Assembly: GCA_964450385.1 (NCBI GenBank)
Contig: CAYVEC010000004.1
Location: 22,148-86,147 of the forward strand
Direction: 5' to 3'
Source of the DNA: an uncultured Planctomycetales bacterium
GTDB taxonomy: Bacteria > Omnitrophota > Gorgyraeia > Zapsychrales > JANLHA01
Length of the DNA stretch: 64,000 bases
This document shows positions 2,483-64,000 of the stretch, piece by piece. Positions within the stretch are counted from its first letter, which is position 1, and the number at the start of each line of letters is the position of its first letter. The position numbers and the translations under genes were made by a program. The notes under the pieces were generated by a model. The model was given only the letters and a program-made list of their open reading frames with translations. It was not told the DNA's origin and ran no database searches.

Positions 2483-2503
2483 TATGAGACGGAGGCGTTA
2501 GAT

Positions 2504-3388
2504 ATGTTCCTCTTCTGTTTATTCCTGGCCTTTCTGTCGGCCTTCAGTTTTATCATGGGGATGTTCCCCGTCGATTGGGAATCCCGGCCGACGCTTGAGA
2601 CCTTCGGGTATGATGTGCGGATCAAAAAGCGGGGGGGCCGGCGGTTCTCGCTCCTCAGGATCGTTTCGCTTATCAACAAACCCCTCTGTGTGGGGGTCAT
2701 GGGTGCCCGTATCCGGAAAGACCTCGTCAAGGGGCGCGTGGCGATATCGCCTGAGGAATTTTTTCTGCTCAAAGAGATCAGCGTGATCCTCATCTCGATC
2801 GCGGCGGTGATGCTTATTCCCAAAGACATGCTCTCCCTCGGCCTCCTCATCGGCGTCATGGTGGGGTATCTCCTGCCCGAGTATTGGTTAAAGGGCAAGA
2901 TCAAACAGGTCCGCCAGACGATCCTGAAGGAACTCCCCGACGCGGTTGACCTCCTCGGGCTCTGCGTTAATGCCGGGCTGGATTTCATGCTTGCCCTCAA
3001 ATGGGTCGTCGAGAAATCCCCGCCGTCGGTGATGATCAATGAGCTCAACATCCTGCTTCAGGAGATCAACGTCGGGAAAACCCGCCGGGACGCGCTCAAA
3101 TCTCTCGCGCAGAAATATGATCTCCCCGATCTCTCGACGTTCACTCGGACGCTCATCCAGGCCGACAAGATGGGGACCTCGGTCGCCGAGGCCCTTAATA
3201 TTCTTTCGGAAGACATGCGGCTCGCCCGCTTCCGGCGCGGTGAGCAGCTCGCCATGAAGGCGCCGATCAAGCTCCTGGTCCCGCTCATGTGTTTTATCTT
3301 TCCGGTCGTGGGTATATTGGTCGCAGGCCCAATCTTTATTCAATTTATGACCGATAATCCGCTGAGCAAGATCGGCGGCAAGAAGTAA
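2504..3388 (+). CDS. tadC: Tad pilus assembly inner-membrane protein TadC (type II secretion system F domain)
   Basis: 294 aa with an N-terminal TM segment and T2SS-F domain (LPDAVDLLGLCVNAGLDFMLALKWVVEKSP...; LIQADKMGTSVAEALNILSEDMRLARFRRGEQLAMKAPIKLLVPLMCFIFPVV), classic TadC features. It sits 21 nt after the tadB stop. Confidence 0.8.
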   Translation: MFLFCLFLAFLSAFSFIMGMFPVDWESRPTLETFGYDVRIKKRGGRRFSLLRIVSLINKPLCVGVMGARIRKDLVKGRVAISPEEFFLLKEISVILISIAAVMLIPKDMLSLGLLIGVMVGYLLPEYWLKGKIKQVRQTILKELPDAVDLLGLCVNAGLDFMLALKWVVEKSPPSVMINELNILLQEINVGKTRRDALKSLAQKYDLPDLSTFTRTLIQADKMGTSVAEALNILSEDMRLARFRRGEQLAMKAPIKLLVPLMCFIFPVVGILVAGPIFIQFMTDNPLSKIGGKK

Positions 3389-3702: not shown

Positions 3703-3870
3703 ATGATATACTCTTAGCGCACTAGCCCGGAGGAAAAAAGAACAGCCGTATCGCAGTTGTCAAGAACATAATTGTCCAATCACAAAAGTCGCCTGAACCG
3801 GCGACTTTCTTGTTTTATAAAAACCCCGGGCGTTTTCATAATGTACAGTCTGTAAATATAGGATTCTTTT

Positions 3871-45800: not shown

Positions 45801-48800
45801 TCTGATGAACACTACGGGATTGATTTCAGTGCTTCATTTTAGCGGACTTGGGAAGACCGAGTGGGGCCGCCGGCTGAACGAGGCATCGCAGAGTCTCGGC
45901 GTGAGAATAGCCGAGGCATGGTTGAAAAAGGTGTTTGGGTGGATCGTGGGTGCCGGCGTGATGTTTATGATCGGACTCATCGGGTCTAATATCGTGACCG
46001 GCGGGGAGCTGATCTTTTCGTCGTTCGGGCTTTCGATGGGGTATTGGATGATGGGGATCTGGCTTGGCATTATTTTTATTAAGCACGCCTTCATCCCCTT
46101 GGCCGGCTGGCTGCTCGCCAAGCGGGTGACGCCTAAAACACTGCCGAAACAATATCATCCGATGCGTTTTGATATATGGAAGCGTGTTCGCGCCGGCTTT
46201 ATTGATCGTCATTTGAATCTGGCGGGCGCGTTTTTTGAATATGAAATGATGCTCTATGATCAGGATTTGACACGGCTTATGGATCATTTTTATCCTGATC
46301 AGGGGGGCAATAAACGGATAATGGACTATCGCGTGGAGATTAGCAAAGACATTGAAACCTATAATCGCATGCAAGATGGTGATCCGCAAAAAGAAATACG
46401 GCGTCGTTCGATTATTGAGCGATGGTTTTTAAACCCGATCTTCCAGTTCTGGCTTATGGTCGAAACGGATCAGCACAAGAAGTCCGAAAATTATAATAAA
46501 GGGAAAAAGCCCCTTAAGTTGCTCGGGGTGTACGAGCGTCGCGGATTGGAGTACTTTGTCCTGAGCGACCGGGACCTCAGGCGGTTCTTTGAGGATTTCC
46601 TGAGCGAGGTTAAAAGAAATCCGGACGATTTTCTTAACGAAAAGAAGGAGCCGATGGCGAAATTTAATCTCCTTGAATATCTGATCAGGAAAGAATTGGC
46701 TACAGGGAAGGCCGATGATATCTACATTGCGGCTAAGGGCAGCAAACCTGACAAGGATTTTGATGTGATCGACGAGGCGTTCTTATTTGAGATTAAGAAG
46801 GCATTGAAAGAGAAATATAACGAGGTCGGGCTGAAACAGCCGTCGTTCCCGATTAAATTAAATAAGTGGTGGCACGTGATCTTTGTGTCTGCCGAGGCCA
46901 TCTTGTTTGTGTTAAGCGCCGTTATCCTTATTTCACCGATCTTGGCATGGATCGGCGTTCCTGGCATATCGGTTTTGATCGTGTCGTTGAGGGGCGCCTT
47001 GTTCTATGGCCTGGTCTTAGTCTGGTTTGGACGCATCATTGTGAAGTATCAGAAACATATTGTTTTCCATTTGACGGATTGGCCCAGGGCCTTGTTGAGG
47101 ATATTTGCGACGAAAAATGCTTATTATTATGATAAGGTCCGGACAGAGGATCTTACGGAGATTGTCGGACCCAGGGCGCCAGGATTATTTGATCGTCTTC
47201 TTGAACTTGGATATATCCGCCGGGATCGGGTGAATGCCTCCCGCGGCATTGTTCAAGATCTGAGTAGAGAGGTTACGTCTGAGCAGTTATTCGAAGCTAT
47301 CGGTGAGAGCGGATACACCGAGCAAGAGATCAAGGATGTACATCGTTTGTTGGTCAACCGCCTGAGACGGGCGGACCAGATCGCGGTTAAAGTTCATTTC
47401 TTCAAGGCGTATTGGACATGGCTCTTTTATTCGAATGCCGTTATCTGGTTGGGCGGGTGGTATTTCTTTAGCCTTGTCGCGCCTGGCGCATGGGCATGGG
47501 TTCCGGCGACATTCTTGCTGATCCTGATCTCGCGCGAGTCGATGAGAGGGTGGTGGTACCTCTTTGTTGAAGCGGCCATGCGGAGCATTGAGAAGAATCA
47601 GCGGTGGCATACATATAAATCCTACAAGCAGATTGACTGGGAGGGGATCGGTCTTGTCCGAGGCAATCCGCTGTTAAAAGAATTTTATAAAGAGGTTTTG
47701 GTGAACACGACCTTAAAGAAGATGTATCTTGTCGGGTCGGCCCACGCCGGAGCCCTCCTGCGCTTTATTGACGGGACCAGCGAGAGCATTGCGTCAGAGG
47801 TGCCCGGCATTGGGGCAGAGGCCCAGGAGGAGATCGTCAAATTCTTTAATCAGGTCATTATGGTGACGACCATCGCCGGCAGTGAAGAGAAGTTGATGCA
47901 GCAGATCGATGGGTGGGCATTACAGATGCTTTTACCGGCGGTCTTTAAGGGAACAGGGAAGAAGCGCATTCTGCCGTCTGTGGATTTCCTTGACGGGGAA
48001 GAGCTTGACGGCGAGAAATATAAGCAAAACAATCAGCTGATCAAGTCCGGGTTCTATATGTTAAAACACGCGAAGCATCAGTCGTGGAGGATCTTTATTG
48101 ATGAGGGCTTCCGGAAGGTCTTGGGCATTGAACTTGAACAGCGCGGGATGAAGGGGGTTCGGTTAACAGCCGATCAATGGAACGGGATGGTGGGGCAGCT
48201 CTTGGATTCTGACACGACCCTTCGACGATCGATCGACCTGGTTGCCGATTGCTTGTTGACCAATAAGCCTGGATTGGACAAAAAGAAGGTGCCTGAGGCT
48301 GTGGAGAGGGCGTTTATCACGGGGTGGATCATGTACCGTGCTGATGGGTATCTGAAGACACTGATCTTGAGTGAGATCGCGGCTGAGGCCGTTTATAAAG
48401 TATTTTTACGGTATCGGTATATGAAGATGCATCCGGATGCGGCCAGTCACTCCGAGAGCCAGGTGTGGCAGGGGATCTTCAGAGATGCGGTAACGGCTCG
48501 CTTGGCGCGGGTTGCCAGGCGGGATGGCCTGAGGGATCCGGAGTCAAATGATGTTGAGACCTTGATGAGCGGCCTCAGGAGTGACCTTGAGCGCCGCATG
48601 GGGGCGAAGCTTAGAAGGGATCTCGCGATCGAACTTGATAAGAAGGCCGCCGAGCTTACCGATGAGGAGTATGAGACGTACGTCTATAAAAAGCTTGCGT
48701 TGGCAGAATATCTTCAATTCGTTCATATCCATGAGGACATTGATCCGAATCTAAAAACAGCGGAGCAAAAAGAGGATCCGAAGGCGATCCGTGAGATCCT

Positions 48801-51800
48801 GGTGGATAACGGCGAATATGCCTTGAATAAGTACAACAATAAGACGATCGTCTCGACCATCGATCCTAAAAAGGGCGACCGCATTGCTGAGGAAGATTTG
48901 TCATTCGATTACGAAGCCGGGGCGAGTTGGGTTCCTAAAACGTCAAAGTGGGCGAATGCCACGCGATTTATCGAGAAGTTTTTAATGGATCGAGGACATG
49001 ATGACGCCATGGTCTTTAACCTTGACCGCGATCAGTTCTTCTCTCCGGCAGACTGGTTCTTGTTGCCCTTGGTGAACATCCAGTTTTCAGAGGATCCCAC
49101 GAAGGGCGCGGTCATGACGCGGATGGAAGATAAGGTGAGCTTTGTCGGTGACGTGGCCGCAGATCATAAGGTCGCGGAGGATGTCTGGAACCTCCGCGTC
49201 TTAGGAGCAGAGAGCCACATCGGGACACATTCGTTTTATGGTCCCGGGATCGTCCGTTGGAGGGTCATGGGGCAGTGGGGCGCGTATTTTACGAATATCG
49301 AGGATACCGGTGCCGCGCACGAGGCCCAGATGCTCGGCTATCGGATGGAATTCTGTCCGGAGATCCTGTTCGGGCGTCCGCGCGAGATGGTCCAGTCGTC
49401 GATCCTTGCCTTCCAGATGAGATTCGGCGGCCTGGTGCTCGACGAATTTTTGAGCACGCACAATCAGCGCTATATGTTATCTGATCAGCTTCATTGGACA
49501 GAAAAGCTCACGATCTTCCAGAATTTCGATTTCTATTTTAACAAACCCATGGTCACGATTTTCAATGTGTTGATTTTTATCTTTTCCATGTTTTTGCCTC
49601 TGGCCCCGTTTGCCTATTTTGCTCTTCCGCTGTTCTTTGTCATGATCCAGTATGTTATGGCAGAGGCGATCACGGCAGGTGGCGTGCGGCTCTTTACGAG
49701 CAAGTATGGGCTGGTCAAGGGGATCCTGAAGTATCTGGGCCGTATGTGGAGCATTGTCTTTACCTTTGGCGTCCTGGTTCCGCTTCATGATGAAAAGACC
49801 CGCGGGGCCCATGAGGGGACGGCCGGGTTGTTCAGCGGCGGCGTTAAAGACATTATTTATCCGCTCGCGACGTTTGAGGAATTGTACAACAAATATCGAA
49901 CGTCTATCCGCGTCGGCATGATGCTCTTGGCGATCATTGGGTTCGCGCCGGCGCATCCTTTGGCCATGGCGACGCAATGGTTTTTCTATCTTTTGCCGAT
50001 CGTCTTTATCTATGGCGGATTCATGAAGAACGGTTATAAGAGACGGGGCGTAACGGTCAGCATGGTCTCGTCCTTGGCGATTTATCTTGTTTTAGGCGGG
50101 GTGTCTGTGTTCGGCGTTATGGCGATCCCCGGGATCGTGATCGGCGCGGCCATGATGATTCCGTGGCTGGTCGTTCTTGTGTCTCAATTCATGAAGAATA
50201 AAGGGAATGTTAAGGCCACGTTCGAATATTTCTCGAGAGATCAAAAGATCCGCGGGATCGCCCACGGGACCATGGCAGCGCTTCTGATGGCAGTTGAGAT
50301 CTCCTTACAGCTTGTCTTTGCGGTCGCGGCCTTTGTAGACGCCGTTGGAACCATTCTCCTCAGCGCCGCGTTCTGGAAGGGGCAGATGGGGATCAAGGGG
50401 GTCATAAAAAATGGCAACGAGAGGTTTAGAAAGCATAATATTTTTGAAGATGTTTTTGCCTGGATATCATTAACGGTCAAGAGCAGCAAGATCGAAAAAG
50501 AGAAGGCGGCTCACTCAGCGTTGTCGATCATGGACTTTTATTTGGGGGCGGATCCTGGGGTGCTTGATACAGCGGTGAAGGGGCTGTGGTTTAATGCAGG
50601 GGCCAAACATGACAATGCGGTCAAATGGAACCGTCGTTATTCGGCTGGCTTCTGGGTGGCTGGGGCTGTTATCGTGGCCGGCCTCATATTCGATGCGGCC
50701 GCCGTGGCCTGGTTAGCCGGAGGGATGTTCGGAGCGATTGTTCTTCTCTACGCCGGGGCGAATATGAAACGCTTCGCATCAGGCAAACGTCCTGAGGCCA
50801 TCTATGGGAAGACCGTCGAGGATACAACAGCGATCAAGGCTGTTAAATTGGCGCTTGTCTATAGTTTAGTCGTGCCGTTCTATTGGCTCAACGAGGCCAT
50901 GAAGTGGCAGATCGCTGGAAAATCGTTGATACACATCATCAACGATCCTTCGGTGGATCAATACGATCGATTAGACGCGGTTAAGGCCTTAGGATCACCG
51001 CTTCTTGGACTTAAGGGCAACCCGATCGTGTTCGAGAAATTTATAACGATCGCTCGAGACGGGAAGGATCTGTATCGTGGGTATCGAGCAGAGACGGTTG
51101 AAAAGATCCGTGTCGCTGCGATCGAGGGGTTGGCCGCGCTTAAATATAAGGACGCTGTTCCTTTGCTTAACCAGTTGGCTGGTTTGAACGAATCTGAAGG
51201 TATACGTGAAGCGGCTGTCAAGGCCCTTCTCGCGTTGAAGGCCTCCCAGGAGCTTCTGATCTCGGTGTTAGAGCATGCTATATCTGATCAGGATGTGAAG
51301 AGTTTGACCAAAAGCAAGGCGCGTGATTTCTTGGCCTGCTTGGATCGGACAGATCCGGTCACGGATGCAGAGTTGTTTGAGGTGGTTTTGGATGAGGAGG
51401 AAGATGCTGCCGCTGCGCCTGAGCAGGGGGCACAGACCGCGGTATCGGCAGAAACAGATGCCAATCGTTCGCAGGCGCCGCCAGCCGGTGAGAATCCTGA
51501 AACGCAGGCTGCGGCCCGGCCCGATACGACCACCGACACGAATCGTTCACAGGGCCCGCCGGCAGACCGTGCGATGATCGTTAAGCACGCTGATCAGGTA
51601 ACGGAAGAGGAGTGGGCGCGCGTTCGTGAGATCAGAGTCTTCACTGAATTTGAAGAACAGACATACCGTTTTCTCCATCCGGATGTTCTTTCCGCTCGAA
51701 AAGGACCGACTTTTATCGTTGAGCGGATCCACAATAAATATAATCAGGGTCTCGATTTAAAAGAGGTAGAGTCAAAGCTTTCCTCTGGATATCCTTTTGT

Positions 51801-54800
51801 CTCGATCCTTGAAGGAGACCAGGTCTGGTTTGATGCCTTGCGTAATGCCGTTCGGTCTGAGGGCAATCCGTCAGGACTTCTGGATGCGGAGGTAACAAGT
51901 ATTTTTGTTGCGCCGCTGGATATCGCTGAAGCCCCTGCCCAGGTGGCGGCGCAGAAGGAGGAGACTTTTGAGGCCGAGGTAAGAAGGGCCAATGAGGACC
52001 GGATCGCGTATGTCTCTGATCAAGAAACAATGGCGATGTTATGGGAAATTCGTATTGTCGGATTTGTGAAGGCCTTTACGAAATTTGATGCTGTCAGGAT
52101 TCAGTCCTTTATTAAACATATTGACTCTGATGCGGTCTCTTCATGCACGATCACTGATGAGGAGCGACGGCACATCTCAGCAGAGATCAGCCGCGTTATC
52201 AGCGAGGATGAGACGATCGCGGATAAAAGGTCTGCTAATCGGACGGCTCAGGATGTCCTTTCCGCGTTGAGCGGCCATGAAATTAAAGTCCTCTTGTTCT
52301 TCCAGCAGGTTCTTTTCACACAGATGCTTCAGCGGTTGGCCCTTCGATCAATGAAGAACAACAAGCCGCTTCCGATGAATCGCCGGACTCCGGACGGAAA
52401 AAAGGCCGATACGATCACGCGCGTCGCCAATTCCTTAAAAGAGATGATCGGCGCGGCGGACTATAAATATACCATTATCAATTCCTATGATCCCACTCTT
52501 CAAAAACTTGAACGGGCCAAGCGGCAATTCTTCGTTTATGTCTTTTCAGACCTGTTGCGGGCTGCTGAGCAGCGCGGGAATCTCCCGGCCGGCAATAGTA
52601 TCGCAGCCCTTCTTGGGCGAATGGCGAATGTTGATGATGAAGAGGCTTGTTGGGCCGCTTTGGATGAGGCGGCACGTCTTCTCGAAGCGGCTGTGAAGAA
52701 CGGATTAGCAGGGTCATCAAAATTGAGCATCTTTTCGGGCCCGTCTGCCGGCGGCAAGGGCGAGATGTGGAGCGCCTGCTGCAGCCGGTATCCGAAGCTG
52801 TTTAGAAAATTAATGCTGTATGCTGATCATGATCGGGAGCCCGATGGCAAGGGACGCCGTTTTGCTTCGGTGACGAAGAACGATGGCGTCCTGTTTGAGG
52901 ATCTTATTGAGTATCTTCGGGCGCCGCAGAACGCGAAACCGAACATCACGGCTTGGGGTCATAAAAAGGTCATTATTGCCGCGGCATCTGTTTTGAAGGG
53001 ACAGCAGTTCATTCGTATTTACACGGCCCTGATGCGGATCTTGTCTAATAAGAAGATGGATCCAAAGGTACTGGCTGGGGTGAAAAAGGCTGTTCCGGTT
53101 TTGATTGCTGCGCTCGCCATTCCTGATCTCACCGGCGTCGTTAAGGACCTTTCCGATAAGTATCAGGGCATCAAGACCACGGCAAAGCTAATCATCTATT
53201 CCGGCCCGCCCGGTGGAGGCAAGAGCCTGGTCTGGGATGGTTTTCAAGCGGGCATGAAAGAACTTTTTGATCGAGGGCTTGTTGATAAGTTTATTTTATT
53301 CCACACGCGAGGTATTCGCCAAGGCGAAACGCAAGGCAAAGAGTATCATTTCCGCACGGAGGCGCATCTAAAGGAATTGGAGAGAAGAGGGCTCATTATT
53401 ACGGCGGTCGTTAATGACCAGCTGCAGGGCTTAGCTTTGGTAGATTTTGAGGATGAATTTGACGATCCTACTCAGGGCGGGGTGACGAATAAAGCGCAGA
53501 TCGCGGGCTTGGCATCAAAACTCATTCAGGATAAGATCACCATCCTCGAGGGCGGATTGGGGTGGTTTGATCAATTAAATGTGTTTTTTGCGGATCGGAT
53601 GGCTTCCCGGAGCGAGTTTGCGGGTGTCAATAATGATGGATTGATGAGCATTTTTGTCTCGCCTTTTACAGAAGACAGGATTAAGGAGATTGAAAAGGCG
53701 CACGCGGATGAGATCGTGAAGATGCAGCGAGGATATGAGCGGGGGATCGCGTTGCACGAAGAGGAGTATCAGGCCGCGGTGGCCAGGCAGGCTATCCTGA
53801 AACCGGAAATTGAATCGTTGATCGCTCAGGGCAGAGAGGCATTAGCAGCAGCGTGGCCGAATTTAAAAACACGGATGTTTGATATGATGGGTCACGCCGC
53901 CTTTGATGAGGATGTTCAGGCGGCCAGTAAATCGGCGACGGGCAAGGACGAGAGCGCAACGAAAGAGGGCGCTCTACGCATGGCGTCACAGCGTGAAACC
54001 GTTATTCGTATTCATAAGAGAGAAACGGGTGAGGCTAAAAAAGTCATTGACACTGTCGAGCAGATGATTAAAAACGGTGAACTCGACAAGATACAGGGGT
54101 TATTGGGAAAGACAGACACTATTCGCAAGGTTCTGTATACGCCGATCAAGGAAAAGGAATTAAGAGATCGTGCCGCTGAGGCCGGAACGCAGGTTATTCG
54201 GCGCGGTGATTATCATACCCGTCTTTATAATATCTTTAAAAAGACGGACGACGAAGTTAAGAAATTAAAGCTCGAGCTGGGTACTGATTTTGCGATTGCC
54301 GCCCTCGTGAATTTATATCAAAAAATGGAAGCCCTAAAGGCCCGTCGTCAAAATACCCCTGACCAGCATGCAGAGGCCCGTCAACAGACGGTTGCCAACA
54401 ATCCTGATGTTCACGCTCCTCCGGCGCAGGCCCAGGGCGCAGAGCGCGCACCTCAGCCCCGCTCGCAGGACAGGGGCATGCTGGGCAGGGCGGATCGGCG
54501 CGAGAATCGCTCAGACGCTGCTCGGCCGATTCCTAATCGGTCGATGCCGCAGGCAGAGGTTGTGACCGCCGAGATCGCACGACATGATTTAAACACATTT
54601 ATTGCCTTAGGGCCGAATAACGCGATGGTCAAGTTAGCCATGTCGATGCTCCGTGCGGTCGGCAAGGGCGAGAAGGCGGATAAGCTCGAATGGATGTCGA
54701 GGGCCGGATTGGTCCGGGCGGGCCCGGTTGAAGGGATCCTGGCCACAACAGCGGCCATTAATGGCTTAGAGGCGATTGTCCTTTCGAATGCGTATCCGGC

Positions 54801-57800
54801 ATACAACACAATTATTGAGCATGCTTTAAGTCTTGTCCACGAGATCGGGGCCGTTGCGCCATTTTATGTTGATCACGCCGGTAATGAGCTGCGCGAATTT
54901 ACCGCCCGCAGTTGGTTGCATCGAGATGAAAATGGGCGGAAGGCGGCAGAAGCGGCCATGCAGGATCCGGCGTTTTCTGCTTTTGTTGGGCTTGAGATCG
55001 CCAAGAGGATTCACAGCCGCGAGGTAAAGGAGGCGGATAAGGTCGCGACGCGATCACGAGAGAATCAGGCGGCGGGCAAGAAGGCGCAGAAATTTTATGT
55101 TCCGACGCCTCAAAAAGAGTTTGTCAAACGTATCAGTGAGGCCGTTGTGCAGGTTGCTCGGCGGCACGAATATAAGAAGGTCTTGGTGAACACGTGGGCT
55201 AACAGCGAGGCTGAATATGAGGAGCTGATCGAGCGGCTGACCGAGGAGTTCGCGCTGACGATTTTCCGCAACATCGCCCGTGCTGTCGGGATGACAGGGA
55301 TCGATCATTTATCGGCAAAGGACCTGGCAGACAGGATCCGCGTGATCGATCTGAGTCAATATGATACGATCGCAAAATTTGTGATTTACAGCGGTCCGCC
55401 TGGCGGCGGCAAGGGGGCAGTATGGGATCGGTTTGAAGAGTTATATGGCGATATGATCAGTAAGTTTGTCTTGTTCCATACGCGCAATATTCGCGACGGC
55501 GAGCAGATGGGCAGGAATTATCATTATCGTAATGAGCAGGCACTTGATGATCTGGCCGTCCAAGGAAAGATCATCACCGCTTTAATTAATGGACAAAAAC
55601 AAGGGATGGCGATCAAAAGTTTTTCTGATCAATATTCATACATTGATCCGCAAACGAAAAAACAATATGACGGGACGGCAGACGTCTTCGGGCTGGAAGG
55701 GGTCTTTAAAGGAAATAAAATTGTGGTGTTGGAATGCGGACTGGCGTGGTTCGAAGCGCTTTATAAGCAGTACGATGACGAATTGACGAGCATTTTTATC
55801 TCGCCGTTCAGCGATCGGGAGATCGAGGATGCGGTGAATGATATGGAGAAAAGCAGGGCCGCCTTTATTGGTCTAGAGATTGCAAAACGCATTCACAGCA
55901 GGGAGGTCAAGGAGGCAGAGGTGGTGGCGAAAGAGAACGCCCTCAAACAGGAGAAAGACGAGGCGATCTCGAAATTCTATCTGCCTACCCCGCAGAAGGA
56001 ATTTGTTAATCGGATCATTGAGGCCTCGGTCCAGGTGGCCCGCCGTCATGAATATCAGGAGGCCCTTGTTAATACGTGGGCCCATAGCGAGGCAGAATAT
56101 GTGGCTATGATCGAGCGATTGACGGAGCAATTCGCCGTAACTATTTTCCGAAAGATCGCGGATGCGGTCGGGATTCCGTACACACCATCGACAACGGCCC
56201 ACGAGCTCGCCGAGCGGATCCGAGCCGTCGATCTAAGCCAGTATGACACGATCGCGAAATTCGCGATCTATAGCGGACCGCCCGGCGGAGGGAAGGGCGC
56301 GGTCTGGGATCGGTTCAAAGAGCTTTATGGTGACATGGTGGATAAATTTGTTCTCTTCCATACACGGAACATCCGCAAGGGTGAAAAGATGGGCGTGAAT
56401 TATCATTATCGCAATCCAGGCCCATTAAAGTCGTTGGAGCAAGAGGGCGGGGTGATCACGGCGTTAGTGAATGGGCAATTACAGGGTTTGGCGGTTGAGA
56501 GCTTCCAAGACAAGTATGGGTATGTTGATCCCCAGTCTGGCGAGAGACATGAGGGTGAGACGTTCATCTCCGGGCTCGATCGAGTCTTTGCCGGAAAGAA
56601 GATCGTCATTCTTGAGTGCGGGCTGGCCTGGTTTGAATCCCTTCACCAGAAGTATGGCGACGCGCTGACGAGTATTTTTATTTCGCCGTTCAGCGATAGC
56701 GAGCTCGCGTGGGCAGAGGAGAGCCTTGTTGATCAACAGAGCCTCCTGACCACGGAAGAGGCTCGAGAGCTGGTTGGATATTTCCATGGTCAAGGCGCAG
56801 AGCTTATTGCCCAGTTGTTCCGGTGGCAGGTTGAGTATTATTTTAAATTAGGAAAGAGCTTAACGCTTGTGCAGATGCTTCAACAGGAGTATTTCGAGCT
56901 CTTGGATGAGAACGGGAACATGACGGGAACTGTCAAGCCGCGCGGGCTGGTCCATTATGACGGCGATTGGCACCGTGATATCCGTGTCATCATGGTGAAT
57001 CATCGCGGTGAAATGCTTATTCAAAAACGTGGGAATCAAAAGGATATTGAGCCTGGTCTTTTTGCAGAGTCAGTAGGGGGGCACACCAAATTAGGCGAGA
57101 GCTATGATCAGAATGTTCATCGTGAGATACGTGAAGAGATCGGCGTTGATCAGATTGATGAACGGCGGCTGGAACGGCTAGGCGTCTTTAAGGACAAAGT
57201 GTTCGGGGCCAGGCACGCGATTAACCGGTCTCACTATGCCGCATATGTGTATGTCATGAACCCGGAGGAAGAGGCGAGGATTGTTATTGATTACGCCGAT
57301 GGGATCGCCGCTGCGTTCTGGGTGCCGATGGCAGAATTGAGGGCCCAGATCCTGGCCGCCCCTGAGGCGTATACAAAATCATTGGTCAATGCGTTCACGG
57401 ATGGTGAGAGTTTTGAAAAACTGTCCGGGTTCGTCGCCCAGGCCGTACATGGCAGGGATTCGGGGATGATCGGCGCCGAGGATGATCAGAGGTCATCGGC
57501 TGTGTCAGGAGGCGGGAAAAAGCTCATTATTTATTCGGGCCCATCCGCTGTCGGCAAGAGCCCGCTTTGGGAGCAGGTCGCGAGGCGGTATCCGGGGGTT
57601 TTTGAACGGGTCGTTCTCTATCATTCACGACTGCCCCGGGCCGGAGAGATCGATGGTGTTCATTATAAATTTACGACGCCCGAGCACATTCGCGATGTTT
57701 TGATACGGACGCCTACCTTTATTGATATTGAGCTCAATGGAGAGCTACACGGCCTGGATATCCGAGATGTCGATGCGGCGATCGCCGGGAACAAGATCGG

Positions 57801-60800
57801 CGTGGCCGAGACGTGTGTCGCATTAGCGCAAAAACTCAAAGAGCGGTATCCCGCGATCGTGTTTACGATCTTTATTTCTCCGTTAACGGATGAGGAGATC
57901 GAACGCCGGAAGGCCGAGGGGGGCAAGACAGAGGAAGAGGTGATTTATGAGGAGATGCGGCGGCGGCAAGAAGAGCGGAACCGGGAGATCCCGATCGAAG
58001 AGAAAAAGCGGGAGGCGCGGGCCCGAACGGCTGTGACAGAAATGGCGCGTCGGCATGATTATGATGCGATGATCGTCATCTCGGATCTGCGTGATATTAA
58101 GGCTCATGCGGATCGCTGGCAGGGAGAAGAGGGGTCGGCCCTCGTTGAGCATTTTATGGGATTGGTCAGAACCGCGGCAGGGATCACCGTCGGTGGGGCA
58201 GGGGAGGCGGAGACAGATCAGGGGATGATATCAGAAGGGGATCAGGCGCTCGTTGAGGATATAGTGACGGTTCTTTCTTGGAGTGCGGAACGACAAACAA
58301 TTCCAAACGGATTTGATCTTTTGTGGATTATGGGCTCACCGAATCGCAGGACCCCAGGGACAGCGATCCAAATTTTAAAGCATCACCCTGAGGCCAAAGT
58401 CCTTATTACGGGCGGTACAGGGAAGAATAATATGCAGACGCCGGAGTGGTTCCTTGCGGGAAGACCTCTTTTTGCAAAGGCGGCTCAATATCTTGATCAG
58501 GCCTTGGATGCCCTGGATAAAATGAGGTCCACAGACGAGGAATTATTCTGGAACATAATGAAAGAGCGTTTTGGCATTTCCCGCGGTGCGGGTTCGGCCA
58601 AAGACCATTCTAATGAGCGATATCGATGGGATATTATTGTGGGACTCAAAGGATATCAGTGCCTCTCTCGATTAAGAAACACAACGATCGAGGAGGCGGT
58701 TTTAGATGACCTGCTTAATAGAGAGACTCGTCCCCATACATTTGTTCCTGAGGCGATGCTCTATTACGCCGTTTTAGCAGCAGAAGGGGTTCCGGAAGAG
58801 AACATGGTCATGGAGTGCCAATCGACGTCTTCGCTTGAGAATATTGAATTTGGCGCCACGTCATTAAAGGTAAACAACATTAGCCCGCGAGATATTGTTC
58901 TGATCCAGCAGGGATATAATCAGCGTCGAGGCAGATTGACGTTTCAAAAGAACTTTCCGAAATTTTTCCCGAATTGGCAAGGGACCGTGACAAGCTGGGC
59001 TGGTCATTTATTTGATGGCAGCGATGGAGCCGATGAATTCGATCTCCATCAAATACGAGATCCAGAGCAATTAGAGTATTGGCGCCAAAGAGCAGTCCGC
59101 GAGGTTGAAAGGATTTTAAATTATGCGGGCCAACATGATGAAAATATTATTGTAAAGGAGCCGGTCCCTGCACAAGTATTTGATGCGGCAAAACGTCTTG
59201 TTGCGGGTAGGGAGAATGAAGGGTGGCACAACGCAGAGCGCGAGTATCGATCATCTAATAATGGGCCCAATAAAGATGAAGGCATGCTGGCCGCTGACGA
59301 TGCAAGAAGAGATGATGGGCTGAAAGGCTTTGGATCGAGCTCTGTCCAGATGCAAACATATTCAGACTTGGCCGGGACATTTGAGGATGATATCACGCTT
59401 GGTGTTCGGGTCGATCAAAAAGGCCCGATCAAGGTAACGGTGCCGGTCCTTAAAGAGAGGCGAAACCCTGTTCGCGAAAAACGAGTTCAGGAGATCGCGG
59501 CGTTATTTAATGAGGCGTTTGTCTTATTAGAGGAGACCGTTTCAACAATAGGGGCGGAAGAGCTGAAGGTGCATTATAGCGGATTATTGGCTCATCCGCA
59601 GAACAAGAGCCCGCCAGCCGATAAGCCTCAGAACATCGTTCGCTTTAGCAGGGAATTGCGTCGCGATTCGGCGCGTTATTTTAATAAGAATGCCCACCGG
59701 GTTGAGTTTATTTTTAATGTGGACTTTATCGATCAATTATTGAGCGGGCATGCGGATCATTCTAAACCCGTTCAGTATATTCTGGCCCAGCGCCTGTTCC
59801 ATGAGATCGGGCACAATAACGACAAAACGAATTTATATGGTCAGGTCCGGGAAGAGTTCGAAATGGTCATCTGGGACCTCAAGCTGTTCGAGCTCTATGA
59901 ACGGATTGGGGCTACCGCAGGGATTAGTGCGTATTATATGCAAGAATTTCCGAACGGCACGGGATTTATCAATCGGACATTTAGGGAATTAGCCAAGACG
60001 AATAGCGACCTGAGGGATCAGGCTCAGCCGCTTTATAAAGCGGTGAAATCGGCCCTAACAGAGATGAATGCGATTGAAGAATTACCGGAGAAAGAGGTAG
60101 GGGCTTTTGTTCAAGAGTTCAGGACCAAATATCCCGCCGTGTATGAAGAGATGGGAGAGGCGGCACGAGTCACCTTTGTCAACATCTTAGAGTGCGTGCG
60201 GCGAGAGACCATTCCTTATGAGGGGGGATACATACGGACCATTATCAAGCTTTCGCGGATGATGAAGGCTAAGCCGGAGCTTTTGCTTCAGTTGAGGGAT
60301 AAGATCGATGAGCTTGAAAGGGTCGAGAATGAGGCGTTGGTGGATTATGTTAAAAATACTCGATCCGTTCATGGGGCCTATGATTTGGCAAATGACGAGG
60401 CTCTGAGGGACAGGGTTCGGGGGCGGGTTGATTATGTACGGGGCAGTTTAATGCCGGCGTTCCAAATACAGTTGCCGGCTGCGCGGCCGTATACATTCTT
60501 GCAGGATTATATGAGCCAGTTAAACATCCGCGCTAATATTGTTGCTGCCGAGAATCTGTTTTATTTGACCGGGACGCAGCAGGTCAGCGTGGTCCCCTGG
60601 CGGCATATTAATCTTCTCAATTTCCGCGGAAATGGCGATGGGACGATTCGTCAATATTTGAATTTCGCGATGAATTGGAGCCAGGCTCTTGGATTCGGGA
60701 TGACACGGGCGGAGAATAATATCGGAGGCCGACAGCGGCCGCACACGCATCCTAATGTCGAGCGCACCCTTTCTCTTTCGGATGATACCTTTGTTGTGAA

Positions 60801-63800
60801 CTATGCCAGGATCATGCAGGATGTGATCCTTGAGTTACAAGAAAAGGCCGGCATCTTAAAAGGCGAGGCCCAGGGGGGCGCGCTTTATAGAGCGATTACG
60901 GCAGCCTTGGCCGCTGATGTGATCGAACGCTTTGGTTCCGGACTGGCAGCGGCCAAGTTTTTGACGGAAGTTGCGTCAGAGAAACCTCACAAAGACTTTG
61001 TTGCTGTAATGAAGGCATGCGAGCGGTTAAGTGATTTAGAAAAAATGGAATTTTCAAGGGCCATAGAGTATATATCGGCACATGTTGCCAAAAGATTGCC
61101 GGAGCTTGAGGCCAAACACGGATTCTCATTAAAGTTCGCCCATATTAGTTATATTCCGCCAGAGGTCTCTCATTATATTAAGAACTCCAGCGGTTCGGTG
61201 CCTAGTGCTGACTGCACCATGAAGGACCTCTTTTTGCAGTTGTATAAGATTGTCGGGACTCCGGGGACGCAGGCGAGCGTTGAAAGTCTTCCGCCGAGGA
61301 CAGAATCACGGCACGACTGGGGCGAGGTTTTTGAACAGGTCCTGACAGAGGTCACGTCAAAAGTAGCGACCGATCCTAACGGAGAAATATACTTTGCTTA
61401 TGATGCGCGCGGGCGATACAACCCGATTTCAGTCGAAAGGGTGGCGCTGCGGGAGACGCTGATTACGGTCAGACCGGGCCAGCAGACAATGACTTTCGAT
61501 ATGGCACGTTATTTTGGCAAGCCGATTGGAGATGGAGTTTATATCGTCGCTCTTCAGCCGTGGCCGAAGGTTGTGCCCGAGCATTGGATGTTTGTTGATC
61601 CTGCAAAAGGGAACGCTCCCGTAGATCCGAAACGCCTCGTGTGTCAGATAGAGCTCTTTACCTCAGGAAGTTTAACACCGGTAGATGTTAAGACGCTGCG
61701 CGGCGGTGAACAGTTGGTGATTAACAATCGCGAGTCGCGCGAAAAAATTACACACATGAGGATTCGAAATGACTCAGAAAATATTAATAGCCATGAAGAC
61801 GCTTCAACGATCGTCATTTTAATTCCAGGTATTGAGGAGGACAATCCATTAAAGTGTTTTGGCGGACAGTCCTTTGTTGGGGCTGATTATGGGATGACGG
61901 GCGATGCGTTTGAGCAGGATTCGCGATTCATCGAGATGGCCGAGACATATTTCACAGGCGACAGGGACGCGACTAGGAAGGCGCTCATTTCTTGGCAAGA
62001 GGGATTTAAGAGCCGTTTAAATAAGGACGTCTCGATCGAACAATTGTTAAACGTGAAGATCGCGGAAGACCAGAAAGGGGCCACGGAATATTTTTATGTT
62101 CTTAATGCTGATGGGACAAGGACCGGACAGATCAAGCCGCGTCACCTTGTTCATCGAGACGGAGACTGGCACGCGTCTGTTTATGTGATGCTTTTTGACA
62201 AAGAAGGGAATGTTATTCTTCAGCGTCGATCCAAGAATCGGCAGACGGATCCTTTCAGGCTTGATGGCGCGGCCTGTGGCCATACCGCTCTTGAGCTTGA
62301 TTATCGAAAAGCGGCGGCCAAGGAGGCGAATGAGGAATTAGGGCTTGAGATCGAGCCACAGGACCTTATTTTAATCGGCCGAGAGAATCAGTATCTTGAT
62401 GTTTTTGATATGGTGGATAGGGATGGAAATGAGCTCCACAACAGAGGCATGACAACGGTTTTTGCCTACGTGCTTCCTGACGGCATAACATCGCAGGACC
62501 TGCGTTTTAGCAGGGAAGAGGTCGACAGCCTGGAAAGCCGGCCGTTTGCTGACGAAGTGTGGCGCGTTCAGCAACTGCCGGGCGACTATGCGACAGTTAA
62601 GAATTTCCTTCAGCCGGGGTCTGAGGTCGTCCGGCTCCTTGGGGAAGCGTTTGAGAACGAGGTGCGCCAGCGTCTTGAGGCTCCTGGAATCTTCATCAGT
62701 GATAAAGATGGTACGATCGTAGAGGCCAGCGAGGCGATCGATCCGGAGATGCTGCAGCAGTTGATGGTGCTGCTCGGTTTGAATATGCACGTGATGATCC
62801 TGACCGGTGCTATTTTTGAACATGGGCTTGCGACGGTGATCGACCCGATCGAGGCCGAGGCCCGGCGCCGTGGCCTGGCAGATCGTCTGCCGAACATCCG
62901 GTATTACTTTATCAGCGGCAATGGATGGATGACATGGGATCAGGAAGGCCGGCGCGCGATCCGTTATATTGAGCAGAGGTTCTCTGACGATGAGCTTTGT
63001 ATCATGGCCGTGAGTTTGGCGTCCTCGTTTATGGATGGCGTTGGGGAGAGGGCCGGCGGCGAGATCATTCTTGAGCCGTATCGCTCTCGGATTGACGCCG
63101 TGCGGTCGATCACGGAAGCGCAGCAGGTCTTCGGGGAATTCATTGAAAGGAATATTGAGACGACCGGTTTTGTCCGGATCGATAATGGCGATGATCGCAT
63201 GGTCATTCTCGAATTAAAGGCCTCACAGCACCGGCTTGCCCGGCCGGCATGGCGTCGAGATGATTTTGTGAGGGTTGTGTATGAGCGCGCATTGTCGCGC
63301 CTCACGGAGCGTGGGGTTACGGTGCCGGTCCATCATTATGGCGCGACGTTCATTGATTTCAACCAGCGCAACAAGAAAGAAACGTTCCGCAGGATCATGG
63401 ACGAGCCGGCCTTCCGGAGGTCTCCGGTCTATGCCTTTGGAGATGGGGCCAATGACTACGAGTTTTTGAATGATCCGGTATCTTATGGCCGAAAGAAGGC
63501 CTTCCTTGTTCGGGCGCCGCAGAGCGGATCCGAGGAACGATTAAAGAATGTCACGATCTGGAGAGCAGAAGGACCCGCAGGCACGAAGGAGATCATTAAG
63601 TCTATTGTTTTTCCTGAAATGATCGGACGAAGGTGGGGCATGGGTGTTGGTAAGGATATCGCGGAGATGATGTCGTTCTTCGGCGGCGACATCGAAAGGG
63701 CCCGCGGGGCCTTGATCGGGTGGCAGCGTGAGTTGAAGGAAAAGATCGGTCAGGACAAGAGCCTCGAGCAGATGACGACCTTTAAGGATGACGCGCATTC

Positions 63801-64000: not shown

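What the first reader, a model, noticed from the sequence alone, without database searches (positions are those of the whole stretch)
52720..64000. C-terminal array of phospho-metabolite enzyme modules: GK-like x4 (+1 degenerate), Nudix x3, DUF218, HAD-IIB, HEIGH
Within about 11 kb the ORF encodes four guanylate-kinase-fold domains (one near-canonical), three paralogous Nudix modules (one canonical, one with catalytic substitutions, one truncated by the window) and a Cof-type HAD phosphatase, all fused in one polypeptide. Concatenating nucleoside-monophosphate kinase, pyrophosphohydrolase and phosphatase folds inside a giant membrane protein is unusual. It suggests a scavenging or signalling hub for nucleotides or sugar-phosphates, or a scaffold of pseudo-enzymes (GK-like domains often become protein-binding modules). 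The modular pattern [linker-Nudix-(HAD)] appears to continue beyond the window.
Basis: partly seen in the sequence, partly recalled or inferred. Interest (0 to 1): 0.85.

Follow-up and report, generated by a model that had tools for sequence, protein, structure and literature searches.

The report
Enzyme-module array in Omnitrophota giant protein
The kinase-like, Nudix, phosphatase and related modules are really there, fused in one open reading frame of more than 20,000 codons, but they are the start of the enzyme-rich part of an Omnitrophota "giant gene", a recently described kind of protein, so this is a new example with some new detail and not a new kind of system.

Summary
Nt 3862-63999 is one uninterrupted frame of at least 20,046 aa that runs off the window. 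From aa 16,286 it encodes guanylate-kinase (GK)-like units, three IDI/YfcD-like Nudix modules, a DUF218, a Cof-type HAD-IIB phosphatase and a conserved HExxH module.

Profile, structure and paralogy tests confirm each one. The HExxH module's fold is only weakly zincin-like.

Context identifies an Omnitrophota multi-enzyme giant protein ("Archaeovorin"-like). It has two gspF/T2SSF genes upstream, an N-terminal C39-like peptidase and many membrane segments. All close relatives lie in Omnitrophota giant ORFs. NUDIX and HAD domains in such proteins are already published; GK-like arrays are not mentioned in the searched library.

New detail:
- The GK-like units keep the P-loop lysine and phosphate-binding Arg/Tyr but have replaced every guanine-recognition residue.
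- They occur as phase-shifted C-half/N-half arrays, and a relative carries a lone circularly permuted unit.
- GK→Nudix and Nudix→HAD are conserved cassettes that also exist as stand-alone proteins with Sec signal peptides.

Most likely these are active phosphotransfer and hydrolase modules for nucleotide-linked, probably NDP-sugar, substrates. Substrate and compartment remain inferred.

Interest is moderate.

The parts
3862..63999 (+). Single open frame of at least 20,046 aa (first ATG at 3871), running off the 3' end of the window: the giant gene
   Evidence: Only this frame is open.
1625..3388 (+). Two T2SSF (gspF/tadBC-like) genes, 1625-2482 and 2504-3388, immediately upstream of the giant gene
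   Evidence: Pfam T2SSF 1.1e-18 and 1.2e-13. This matches the conserved upstream secretion locus described.
52717..52869 (+). Degenerate GK remnant (aa 16286-16336): P-loop GPSAGGKG kept, NMP-binding motif lost
   Evidence: No Pfam hit. The surrounding module aa 16007-16361 is 37% conserved in L007.
53176..54327 (+). GK-A1: N-half aa 16439-16643 and C-half aa 16701-16822 in standard order, with an insertion in the LID region
   Evidence: Pfam 20.1 bits.
54508..54918 (+). 'HEIGA' module (aa 16883-17019), a conserved inter-module domain of unknown fold
   Evidence: No Pfam or PDB match.
54961..56715 (+). GK-A array in the order C-half (aa 17034-17144), full unit (aa 17169-17438), N-half (aa 17463-17618). 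This equals two GK folds if read as circularly permuted units
   Evidence: AF2 model of the full unit has pLDDT 79.8 and pTM 0.74. Foldseek top 50 hits are all guanylate kinases. pN 0.22 and pS 0.75 between repeat units.
56836..57438 (+). Nudix1 (aa 17659-17859), canonical Nudix box GHTKLGESYDQNVHREIREEIGV, IDI/YfcD-like subfamily
57520..58083 (+). GK-B (aa 17887-18074), near-canonical complete GK domain
   Evidence: The only non-window homologue recovered is fused to GDPGP1_C and PfkB in P0008.
58216..59061 (+). DUF218 module (aa 18119-18400)
   Evidence: 34.7 bits against a gathering score of 27.6. Orthologous module is 34% identical in L009.
59311..60132 (+). HExxH ('HEIGH') module (aa 18484-18757, motif at aa 18647), possibly zincin-like
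60133..61881 (+). Unannotated stretch (aa 18758-19340)
   Evidence: No Pfam hit and no PDB sequence match.
62005..62631 (+). Nudix2 (aa 19382-19590): box GHTALELDYRKAAAKEANEELGL, with the first Glu replaced by Leu, Arg by Lys, and the E..EE core kept
   Evidence: Orthologous modules are 57-60% identical in L009, L010 and L012.
62668..63645 (+). HAD-IIB (Cof-type) phosphatase module (aa 19603-19928): DKDGT, TG, K, GDGAND
63736..63999 (+). Nudix3 (aa 19959-20046), truncated by the window end before its Nudix box
   Evidence: Orthologous modules are 55% identical in L004 and L005.

Best explanation
The 11-kb stretch is the first enzyme-rich section of an Omnitrophota giant gene, of the membrane-anchored multi-enzyme, 'Archaeovorin'-like class.

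It is assembled from a phylum-specific pool of shuffled cassettes:
- GK-like phosphotransferase units, in standard or circularly permuted order, placed ahead of an IDI/YfcD-like Nudix hydrolase.
- A second and a third Nudix type, placed ahead of a Cof-type HAD-IIB phosphatase.
- One near-canonical GK, a DUF218 domain, an HExxH (probably zincin-like) module and a 'HEIGA' spacer domain.

Shown here: the folds, the intact catalytic motifs, the remodelled but conserved base pocket of the GK-like units, purifying selection, the conserved cassette order, and the Omnitrophota giant-gene context.

Inferred: the modules are active enzymes that work side by side on nucleotide-diphosphate-linked compounds, most likely NDP-sugars. 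Nudix would split NDP-X into NMP and X-phosphate. The HAD-IIB would remove the phosphate from the sugar phosphate. The GK-like units would use ATP to re-phosphorylate a phosphomonoester that is not GMP, either another NMP or a similar compound. Tethering them in one chain would keep a salvage or conversion line at the membrane of a small predatory or epibiotic cell.
For: **Identity**
- Single ORF of at least 20,046 aa.
- T2SSF genes upstream and an N-terminal C39-like peptidase, as described for these proteins.
- All relatives at 45-68% identity lie in fully open Omnitrophota loci.

**Folds**
- Pfam, NCBIfam and PDB sequence matches.
- The AF2 model of GK-A2 matches only guanylate kinases, TM-score up to 0.81.
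- The HAD profile hits Cof-type HAD-IIB structures, 1.4e-8.

**Activity**
- P-loop Lys and the equivalents of Arg38/Glu44/Tyr50 are at least 95% conserved (Arg41 at least 80%) in 28 units with 47% mean identity.
- Nudix1 has a canonical box.
- The HAD motifs DKDxT, TG, K and GDxxxD are invariant in all 12 family members aligned.
- pN 0.22 against saturated pS between tandem units.

**Substrate theme**
- GK→Nudix and Nudix→HAD order recurs across genomes and in stand-alone proteins.
- Neighbours or fusion partners are UDPGP, Glyco_transf_5, PGM_PMM, GDPGP1_C, PfkB and SIS.
- Sugar-metabolism modules dominate such giants in the literature.
Against: - No substrate was tested. The guanine-binding residues are gone, so the acceptor of the GK-like units is unknown.
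- Nudix2 and the Nudix3 type have altered boxes.
- GK-A3 and the orphan C-half are only half domains unless they complement each other.
- Stand-alone homologues of the same cassettes carry Sec signal peptides. This implies an ATP-poor extracytoplasmic location, which is awkward for a kinase.
- The membrane side of this segment could not be determined.
- The nearest solved relatives of the Nudix modules are IPP isomerase and the CDP/CTP-preferring DR_0079, not NDP-sugar hydrolases.
Confidence: 0.55

Rival explanations
1. The chemistry is the same, but the modules act outside the producer's cytoplasm. They would sit on the cell surface, in the periplasm or inside attached prey, as prey-directed effectors that drain or rewire the prey's nucleotide and NDP-sugar pools, possibly after proteolytic release from the giant precursor.
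For: - Stand-alone GK-A+Nudix, Nudix+HAD and HAD-only homologues start with classical Sec signal peptides.
- The gene lies behind a T2SS/Tad-like locus and carries an N-terminal C39-like peptidase.
- HExxH and HEIGA modules sit at cassette boundaries.
- The literature proposes cleavage and predation roles for these proteins.
Against: - Kinases need ATP.
- Related giants also carry strictly cytoplasmic chemistries, such as radical SAM, response regulators and GGDEF.
- The 2026 survey argues that the bulk of such proteins faces the cytoplasm.
- No cleavage site was identified.
Confidence: 0.25
2. The modules are pseudo-enzymes. GK-like and Nudix folds would be kept as ligand- or protein-binding scaffolds, as in MAGUK GK domains, to organise the giant protein.
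For: - Guanine-specific residues are lost in all GK units.
- There is one P-loop-only remnant, one N-half without LID or C-terminus, and one orphan C-half.
- Nudix2 lacks the first box Glu, and some Nudix3-type orthologues have lost the EE pair.
- Most GK units fall below the Pfam threshold.
Against: - MAGUK-type domains lose the P-loop. Here G-K is at least 95% conserved, together with the phosphate-binding Arg/Glu/Tyr.
- The replaced pocket residues are themselves conserved, which points to a new ligand and not to decay.
- Nudix1 and the HAD are fully canonical.
Confidence: 0.13
3. The substrates are isoprenoid or polyprenyl (di)phosphates instead of nucleotides. IDI-like Nudix modules would hydrolyse prenyl diphosphates, GK-like units would phosphorylate prenyl monophosphates, and the DUF218 would relate to undecaprenyl-phosphate or envelope metabolism. 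This would suit a cell that feeds on archaea with isoprenoid lipids.
For: - The best solved relative of Nudix1 is E. coli IPP isomerase over its full length, 5.6e-10.
- The three IDI metal-site His are kept in all three types, and the Glu114/Glu116 equivalents are kept in Nudix3-type orthologues.
- NCBIfam's Nud_hyd_Meth model hits at 54.8 bits.
- From my own knowledge, not checked here: an IDI-like Nudix of Methanosarcina is reported to hydrolyse IPP/DMAPP, and the E. coli DUF218 proteins ElyC and SanA affect envelope and Und-P-linked processes.
Against: - No isoprenoid enzyme is fused to or neighbours any relative examined. All contextual enzymes are sugar or nucleotide-sugar enzymes.
- The IDI catalytic pair Cys67/Glu116 is absent.
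- Scores are far below the IDI cutoffs.
Confidence: 0.06
4. Artefact: a mis-assembled or decaying pseudogene region in which domain hits are chance or chimeric.
For: The source contig was not found in either public collection scanned.
Against: - 60 kb without a stop codon in one frame only.
- Module order and sequences are conserved at 45-68% identity in several independent Omnitrophota assemblies.
- Purifying selection between repeats.
Confidence: 0.01

Closest known systems
Omnitrophota giant proteins ('Archaeovorins' of West-Roberts et al. 2023, bioRxiv 10.1101/2023.11.21.568195; 'multi-enzyme metabolic cluster' class of bioRxiv 10.64898/2026.06.07.730766)
   Same: - ORF of tens of thousands of codons with several membrane-segment clusters.
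- N-terminal C39-like peptidase and a T2SS-like locus upstream.
- Long unannotated stretches, HEAT repeats, and NUDIX and HAD modules.
- Old, diverged internal duplications.
   Different: - This protein is not in the collections searched.
- GK-like arrays, the IDI-like nature of the Nudix modules, the DUF218 and the HEIGA/HExxH boundary modules are not mentioned in the texts read.
- The first 20 kaa lack the glycosyltransferase and methyltransferase content typical of the type protein.
Guanylate kinase (Gmk; PF00625, TIGR03263)
   Same: - Full GK fold for GK-A2 and for GK-B.
- P-loop Lys and GMP-phosphate ligands Arg38, Arg41, Glu44 and Tyr50 (yeast numbering) are conserved.
   Different: - Guanine ligands Ser34, Glu69, Ser80 and Asp100 are all replaced by Leu, Thr/Asp, Met/Leu and Gly/Cys.
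- The P-loop is adenylate-kinase-like, GPPGGGKG.
- A roughly 25-aa beta-hairpin is inserted in the NMP-binding part, and the LID is enlarged.
- Some units are halves or circularly permuted.
- Scores are far below the equivalog cutoff.
Type 1 IPP isomerase / YfcD / DR_0079 branch of the Nudix clan
   Same: - Full-length similarity, including the N-terminal extension with two His and the GH of the metal site.
- Nudix1 has a complete Nudix box, as the hydrolases of this branch do.
   Different: - IDI catalytic Cys67 and Glu116 are never present together.
- Scores of 69 and 55 bits against a cutoff of 127.
- Substrate unknown.
Cof-type HAD-IIB sugar-phosphate phosphatases (PfHAD1 4qjb, TM0651 1nf2, YidA 1rkq; eukaryotic-type PMM2)
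   Same: - Motifs I-IV are intact, with a large cap insert between motifs II and III.
- All best profile hits are to this group.
   Different: - Very divergent and rare. Only 14 cluster representatives among 1.84 billion proteins.
- Below the TIGR01484 cutoff.
- Usually fused to a Nudix or to HEIGA, or exported.
MAGUK GK-like protein-binding domains
   Same: GK fold with lost guanine specificity.
   Different: MAGUK domains have lost the P-loop. Here it is strictly conserved.
Minigluzincins and other zincin metallopeptidases (selecase 4qhf, projannalysin 4jix, 3e11)
   Same: - HExxH is invariant on a helix that follows a small beta-sheet.
   Different: - The model has low confidence.
- There is no significant Foldseek, Pfam or sequence-profile match.
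- The third zinc ligand was not identified.

Membership tests
Guanylate kinase (PF00625 / TIGR03263) | GK fold: P-loop core, NMP-binding subdomain, LID and C-terminal helix | tested here: met
   The GK-A2 AF2 model has pLDDT 79.8. Its top 50 Foldseek PDB hits are all guanylate kinases, TMt up to 0.81. GK-B aligns to GK structures over 8-152 at 1e-12.
Guanylate kinase (PF00625 / TIGR03263) | Walker A lysine and GMP-phosphate ligands (Arg38, Arg41, Glu44, Tyr50; yeast numbering) | tested here: met
   Alignment with E. coli and yeast GK. The P-loop Lys and the Arg38/Glu44/Tyr50 equivalents are at least 95% conserved and the Arg41 equivalent at least 80% conserved in 28 units.
Guanylate kinase (PF00625 / TIGR03263) | Guanine-recognition residues Ser34, Glu69, Ser80, Asp100 | tested here: not met
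   Replaced in GK-A by Leu, Thr, Met/Leu and Gly, and in GK-B by Leu, Asp, Leu and Cys.
Guanylate kinase (PF00625 / TIGR03263) | Curated score thresholds | tested here: inconclusive
   Pfam gathering score 25.2: GK-B 57.1 and GK-A2 28.9 pass; GK-A1 20.1 and GK-A3 21.8 fail; the remnant has no hit. TIGR03263 equivalog cutoff 160: best score is 72.5.
Nudix hydrolase (PF00293) | Nudix fold above threshold, and Nudix box GX5EX7REUXEEXGU | tested here: met
   Nudix1 scores 55.9 bits and has a canonical box. Nudix2 scores 36.8 bits with E→L and R→K changes but keeps E..EE. Nudix3 is cut before its box, and its orthologues read HETEEEV.
Type 1 isopentenyl-diphosphate isomerase | Catalytic Cys67 plus Glu116, and the curated cutoff (127 bits) | tested here: not met
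   Nudix1: Cys→Gly, Glu114→Asn and Glu116→Ser. Nudix2 keeps the Cys, but Glu114→Asn and Glu116→Gly. Nudix3-type orthologues keep the acidic pair but have no Cys. Scores are 69 and 54.7 bits.
HAD-IIB, Cof-type | Motifs I (DxDxT), II (T/S-G), III (K), IV (GDxxxD), with a large C2 cap between II and III | tested here: met
   DKDGT, TG, K239 and GDGAND are invariant in the 12 family members aligned, and about 190 aa separate motifs II and III. Profile against PDB: PfHAD1 1.4e-8, followed by other Cof-type enzymes and PMM2. Pfam Hydrolase_3 scores 22.6 against a gathering score of 20.9. TIGR01484 scores 31.5, below its cutoff of 41.8.
DUF218 (PF02698) | Match above the gathering score | tested here: met
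   34.7 bits against 27.6, covering profile positions 40-110 of 133. No PDB sequence match. Fold not modelled.
Zincin metallopeptidase | HExxH on the active-site helix, a third zinc ligand, and the zincin fold | tested here: inconclusive
Omnitrophota giant multi-enzyme protein ('Archaeovorin'-like) | ORF above 10 kaa with several TM clusters, N-terminal C39 peptidase, and an upstream T2SS-like locus | tested here: met
   At least 20,046 aa. Hydrophobic clusters extend up to aa 15,615. C39 scores 22.7 bits against a gathering score of 22, and there are two T2SSF genes upstream. Description.
Omnitrophota giant multi-enzyme protein ('Archaeovorin'-like) | Omnitrophota origin | tested here: met
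   The eight loci with the closest Nudix1-, Nudix2- or Nudix3-type modules (up to 68% identity to the module they resemble) are from Omnitrophota MAGs or SAGs, and seven of them are open in one frame from end to end. There is no phylogenetic marker in the window, so assignment is by relatives only.
Omnitrophota giant multi-enzyme protein ('Archaeovorin'-like) | Downstream pilZ genes; glycosyltransferase and methyltransferase content | not testable with these tools
   The gene runs off the window and its source contig was not found. A relative (L001) shows giant ORF, then PilZ, then a GK-A+Nudix protein.
MAGUK-type GK pseudo-kinase | Loss of the ATP-binding P-loop | tested here: not met
   The P-loop GxxGxGK is kept in all five units and in 28 related units.

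The most novel reading that the evidence does not exclude
The GK-like units are a previously undescribed GK-derived phosphotransferase family with a rebuilt, non-guanine acceptor pocket. The family has been caught at every stage of 'permutation by duplication': standard N-C units, tandem N-C-N-C, and the lone C-N permuted unit seen in relatives (L004, P0010). Together with an IDI-like Nudix it forms an exported two-enzyme cassette. The HEIGA and HExxH modules at cassette boundaries would be the long-sought processing or docking elements that cut or organise Omnitrophota giant polyproteins into working enzyme sets used on prey.
Probability: 0.15. Interest if true: 0.75.

Novelty: new member of a known kind. 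Interest (0 to 1): 0.5.

Why it matters
Giant genes of Omnitrophota are among the largest known in any organism, and their function is essentially untested. This window gives a clean, module-by-module parts list for one enzyme-rich section. It also shows that the same cassettes recur in other giants and as small, signal-peptide-bearing proteins.

Those small proteins are tractable. They could be expressed and assayed to learn what the giants do. The GK-like units offer a natural series of circular-permutation intermediates. The recurrent HEIGA and HExxH boundary modules are concrete candidates for the unknown processing sites of these polyproteins.

None of this changes the basic picture already published, namely multi-enzyme giant proteins linked to a predatory or epibiotic lifestyle.

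Tried and rejected
- **Looking for the source contig or its continuation.** Peptide-pattern scans of genome contigs and metagenome contigs with the last 467 aa found nothing. What lies beyond nt 64000 is therefore unknown.
- **Third word-index protein search** (aa 18,485-20,046) returned no hit. The second search added no new proteins.
The 4-sequence model is weak.
- **Single-sequence PDB searches** for the DUF218, the unannotated 600 aa and the HEIGA profile gave nothing useful.
- **Topology.** I tried to infer which side of the membrane the segment lies on from hydrophobic segments. I rejected this because several candidates are ambiguous and the parity cannot be trusted.
- **IPP isomerase** was considered for the Nudix modules and rejected on catalytic residues.
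- **A transmembrane helix at aa 16403-16421** was considered and rejected. The hydrophobic run is only about 12 residues.
- **The motifs 'LRPxSL' and 'GGIDLNP'** seen in stand-alone homologues were searched for in the giant protein. They are absent.
Full report
**What is in the sequence**

The window holds a single reading frame that stays open from nt 3862 to the last full codon at 63999. That is 20,046 codons, with the first ATG at 3871. No other frame has more than 409 open codons. The finding covers aa 16,287-20,046 of this protein, where aa i corresponds to nt 3862+3(i-1).

Whole-region profile scans recover Guanylate_kin (1.8e-28), NUDIX (7.3e-24), DUF218 (2.4e-6) and HAD-IIB/Hydrolase_3. 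Self-comparison and custom HMMs resolve the following order:
- a P-loop-only GK remnant (aa 16286-16336)
- GK-A1 (N-half aa 16439-16643, insert, C-half aa 16701-16822)
- a 137-aa 'HEIGA' module (aa 16883-17019)
- a GK-A C-half (aa 17034-17144), a full GK-A unit (aa 17169-17438) and a GK-A N-half (aa 17463-17618)
- Nudix1 (aa 17659-17859)
- GK-B (aa 17887-18074)
- DUF218 (aa 18119-18400)
- an HExxH module (aa 18484-18757)
- about 580 unannotated residues
- Nudix2 (aa 19382-19590)
- a HAD (aa 19603-19928)
- Nudix3 (aa 19959 to the window end)

None of these module types occurs in the first 16,285 aa. That part has almost no Pfam content: a C39-like peptidase at the N-terminus, an M23 peptidase near aa 9640, and HEAT repeats near aa 15,750. 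The array is therefore not C-terminal. It is where the enzyme-rich part begins, and the window cuts it.

**Module by module**

*GK-like units.*
- GK-B is a complete, near-canonical GK domain: Pfam 57.1 bits, and 1e-12 to M. tuberculosis and other GK structures.
- Only GK-A2 of the GK-A units passes the Pfam threshold, at 28.9 bits. GK-A1 (20.1) and GK-A3 (21.8) do not.
- An AlphaFold model of GK-A2, built on eight family sequences, has pLDDT 79.8 and pTM 0.74. Its 50 best Foldseek matches in the PDB are all guanylate kinases over their full length, with TM-score up to 0.81 to yeast GK.
  - All units keep the P-loop lysine and the GMP-phosphate ligands Arg38, Arg41, Glu44 and Tyr50.
  - Every residue that reads the guanine base (Ser34, Glu69, Ser80, Asp100) is replaced.
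- The replacements are themselves conserved. In 28 GK-A N-halves from the window, Omnitrophota loci and database proteins (mean identity 47%), the P-loop G-K and the Arg38, Glu44 and Tyr50 equivalents are at least 95% conserved. So are the new Leu and Gly at the former Ser34 and Asp100 positions. The Arg41 equivalent is at least 80% conserved.
- The GK-A P-loop, GPPGGGKG, resembles that of adenylate kinases (my own knowledge).
- The two tandem repeat units in the window are 66% identical in protein, with pS 0.75 (saturated) and pN 0.22. This is an old duplication kept under purifying selection.

*Nudix modules.*
- All three belong to the IPP-isomerase/YfcD/DR_0079 branch.
  - The best solved relative of Nudix1 is E. 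coli IDI over its full length (5.6e-10), followed by DR_0079 and YfcD.
  - NCBIfam gives 69 and 55 bits to the IDI model, far below its cutoff of 127.
- I aligned the window modules with their orthologues in other genomes.
  - Nudix1-type modules have a perfect Nudix box.
  - Nudix2-type modules consistently lack the first box Glu and often carry Cys-Gly-His, but keep (K/R)E..EE.
  - Nudix3-type modules read HETEEEV and keep the acidic pair that corresponds to IDI Glu114/Glu116.
  - The three IDI metal-site histidines are kept in every complete module of all three types (the window's truncated Nudix3 shows only the first two).
  - The IDI catalytic pair Cys67+Glu116 is never present together.
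- They are therefore hydrolase-type, or in part non-canonical, Nudix modules and not isomerases.
- DR_0079, a solved relative, prefers CDP/CTP (cited in PMC5389931).

*HAD module.*
- It is very divergent. A single-sequence PDB search gives only E 0.25.
- An exhaustive HMMER scan of 1.84 billion cluster representatives finds just 14 relatives.
- In the 12 relatives aligned, DKDxT, T-G, K and GDxxxD are invariant.
- The family profile hits Cof-type HAD-IIB sugar phosphatases and PMM2, led by PfHAD1 at 1.4e-8.
- About 190 residues lie between motifs II and III, which fits a C2 cap.

*DUF218.* It passes the Pfam threshold (34.7 against 27.6) over part of the profile.

*HExxH module.*
- The motif is invariant in eight homologues.
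- The module has no Pfam, PDB-sequence or Foldseek match.
- A zincin-like fold is plausible but not shown.

**What the surroundings and relatives say**

Two T2SSF (gspF/tadBC-like) genes lie directly upstream. The giant protein starts with a C39-like peptidase between two hydrophobic segments. More hydrophobic clusters follow, up to aa 15,615.

This is the published signature of Omnitrophota giant genes: a T2SS-like locus upstream, an N-terminal C39 domain, many TM segments, and NUDIX and HAD among the frequent domains. A 2026 survey adds a 'multi-enzyme metabolic cluster' class and shows that internal repeats are ancient.

The source contig itself is not in the two collections scanned. A scan with the Nudix alignment found eight loci with the closest relatives of the window's three Nudix types (up to 68% identity). 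All eight come from Omnitrophota MAGs or SAGs, and seven of them are open in one frame from end to end.

Mapping my module HMMs on those loci shows the same building blocks in varying order and number. Two rules are strongly recurrent:
- GK-A units precede a Nudix1-type module.
- Nudix2- or Nudix3-type modules precede a HAD or a HEIGA module.

In L004 the Nudix3-type module is followed by a HAD.

The same cassettes exist as separate proteins with classical Sec signal peptides:
- signal peptide + N-domain + GK-A + Nudix (P0005, P0006, P0013)
- signal peptide + Nudix + HAD (P0026)
- signal peptide + HAD (P0020, P0018)

P0013 lies just after a giant ORF of at least 6,094 aa and a pilZ gene. It is followed by large UDPGP- and Glyco_transf_5-containing proteins. 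The only non-window homologue of GK-B recovered (P0008) is fused to a GDP-hexose-phosphorylase-like domain and a PfkB sugar kinase, next to a PGM/PMM gene. One HAD relative is fused to SIS domains.

**Phase-shifted and permuted GK units**

In the window and in at least six places in L005 and L010, GK-A arrays begin with a C-half (HMM positions 159-266) and end with an N-half (positions 1-152). A constant linker of about 25 aa joins each C-half to the next N-half.

In L004 a lone C-half+linker+N-half sits between a HEIGA module and a Nudix. P0010 shows the same arrangement, although its C-half match is weak (19.8 bits). That is a single circularly permuted GK.

Standard N-C units (P0001, P0004-6, P0013, L006) and tandem N-C-N-C arrays (P0003) also exist. 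Read this way, the window segment aa 17034-17618 encodes two complete GK folds, not one and two halves.

I could not test the fold of the permuted order because the structure jobs were exhausted. This part is inference from HMM coordinates.

**How it most likely works**

*Shown:* real folds, intact catalytic motifs in Nudix1, the HAD and the GK P-loop and phosphate site, a conserved new acceptor pocket, purifying selection, conserved cassette order, and an Omnitrophota giant-gene context rich in sugar and nucleotide-sugar enzymes.

*Inferred:* the modules are active and process nucleotide-diphosphate-linked compounds, probably NDP-sugars.
- Nudix gives NMP plus sugar-1-phosphate.
- The HAD-IIB removes the phosphate from the sugar phosphate.
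- The GK-like units re-phosphorylate a non-GMP phosphomonoester with ATP.

I put about 0.9 on the identity (a section of an Omnitrophota giant multi-enzyme protein) and about 0.4 on this chemistry, for a combined 0.55.

*Main open conflict:* the compartment. Exported stand-alone homologues argue for an extracytoplasmic or prey-directed site of action. The need for ATP, and the cytoplasmic chemistries found in related giants, argue for the cytoplasmic face.

*Rivals:* prey-directed effectors (0.25), a pseudo-enzyme scaffold (0.13), isoprenoid-phosphate chemistry (0.06) and artefact (0.01).

**Novelty and verdict**

The general phenomenon is already published, so the finding is a new member of a known kind. 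No paper in the searchable library combines 'guanylate kinase' with Omnitroph*. The original description of the Velamenicoccus giant protein (Kizina et al. 2022) was not among the papers that a search of the library for the organism's name returned.

The points below were not found in the two Omnitrophota giant-protein papers read:
- the remodelled and permuted GK-like family
- the three conserved Nudix types
- the rare HAD-IIB subfamily
- the exported stand-alone cassettes
- the HEIGA and HExxH boundary modules

They give concrete, testable handles on what these giant proteins do. Interest is moderate, 0.5.

Noticed in passing
window 54961-56715 (aa 17034-17618); L004 ORF aa 3017-3304; P0010 aa 110-471: GK-like arrays start with a C-half and end with an N-half. 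In L004, and probably in P0010 (its C-half match is weak), a lone C-half+25-aa linker+N-half forms what looks like a circularly permuted guanylate-kinase fold. Standard, tandem and permuted forms coexist in the family.
   Followed up: partly
window 54508-54918 (aa 16883-17019); 6-8 copies each in L004, L005, L010: 'HEIGA' is a 137-aa module with invariant D..R, RAGP and SL.HEIG motifs and a conserved (K/R)xDPTRPLPGxPM leader. It sits at the boundaries between enzyme cassettes in related giant ORFs and at the N-terminus of the HAD protein P0014. It has no Pfam or PDB match. It is a candidate docking or processing domain.
   Followed up: partly
P0005, P0006, P0013, P0026, P0020, P0018, P0023 (database homologues): Stand-alone versions of the GK-A+Nudix, Nudix+HAD and HAD modules carry Sec signal peptides. 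Several GK-A+Nudix proteins (P0004, P0005, P0010, P0013) end in a conserved tail of about 60 aa, 'GG(I)DLNPASLNM...'. Three HAD proteins share 'LRPxSL' near the N-terminus, directly after the signal peptide in P0018 and P0020. Neither motif occurs in the window protein.
   Followed up: partly
window 1625-2482 and 2504-3388; window 3871-5400: Two T2SSF (gspF/tadBC-like) genes lie directly upstream of the giant gene. A Peptidase_C39-like domain (22.7 bits) lies at aa 227-287 between two N-terminal hydrophobic segments. The 404-aa ORF at 18-1232 has no Pfam match.
   Followed up: partly
window ~32790-32980 (aa ~9640) and ~51100-51300 (aa ~15750): A Peptidase_M23 domain (31.5 bits) and HEAT_2 repeats (29.6 bits) are almost the only other recognisable domains in the first 16,000 aa of the giant protein.
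   Followed up: no
window 1-44000 versus 44000-64000: G+C drops from about 0.58 to about 0.51 in the last third of the window. The drop is mostly at codon positions 1 and 2, and GC3 falls only slightly. This points to a change in amino-acid composition and not clearly to a foreign origin.
   Followed up: partly
window 62668-63645 (aa 19603-19928): The HAD module belongs to a very small family. Only 14 cluster representatives match among 1.84 billion proteins, and none bridges to ordinary HAD proteins by single-sequence search.
   Followed up: yes
window 60133-61881 (aa 18758-19340): About 580 residues between the HExxH module and Nudix2 have no Pfam or PDB sequence match. No homologue was found in the fetched loci.
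   Followed up: partly
L003 (ENA ERZ1286166 contig_3842, 444 kb): A run of same-strand ORFs (1062, 2072, 138, 597, 447, 794, 332 and 1172 aa and more) carries GK-A units, Glyco_transf_5 and ROK. It looks like a giant gene broken by frameshifts in a long-read assembly.
   Followed up: no
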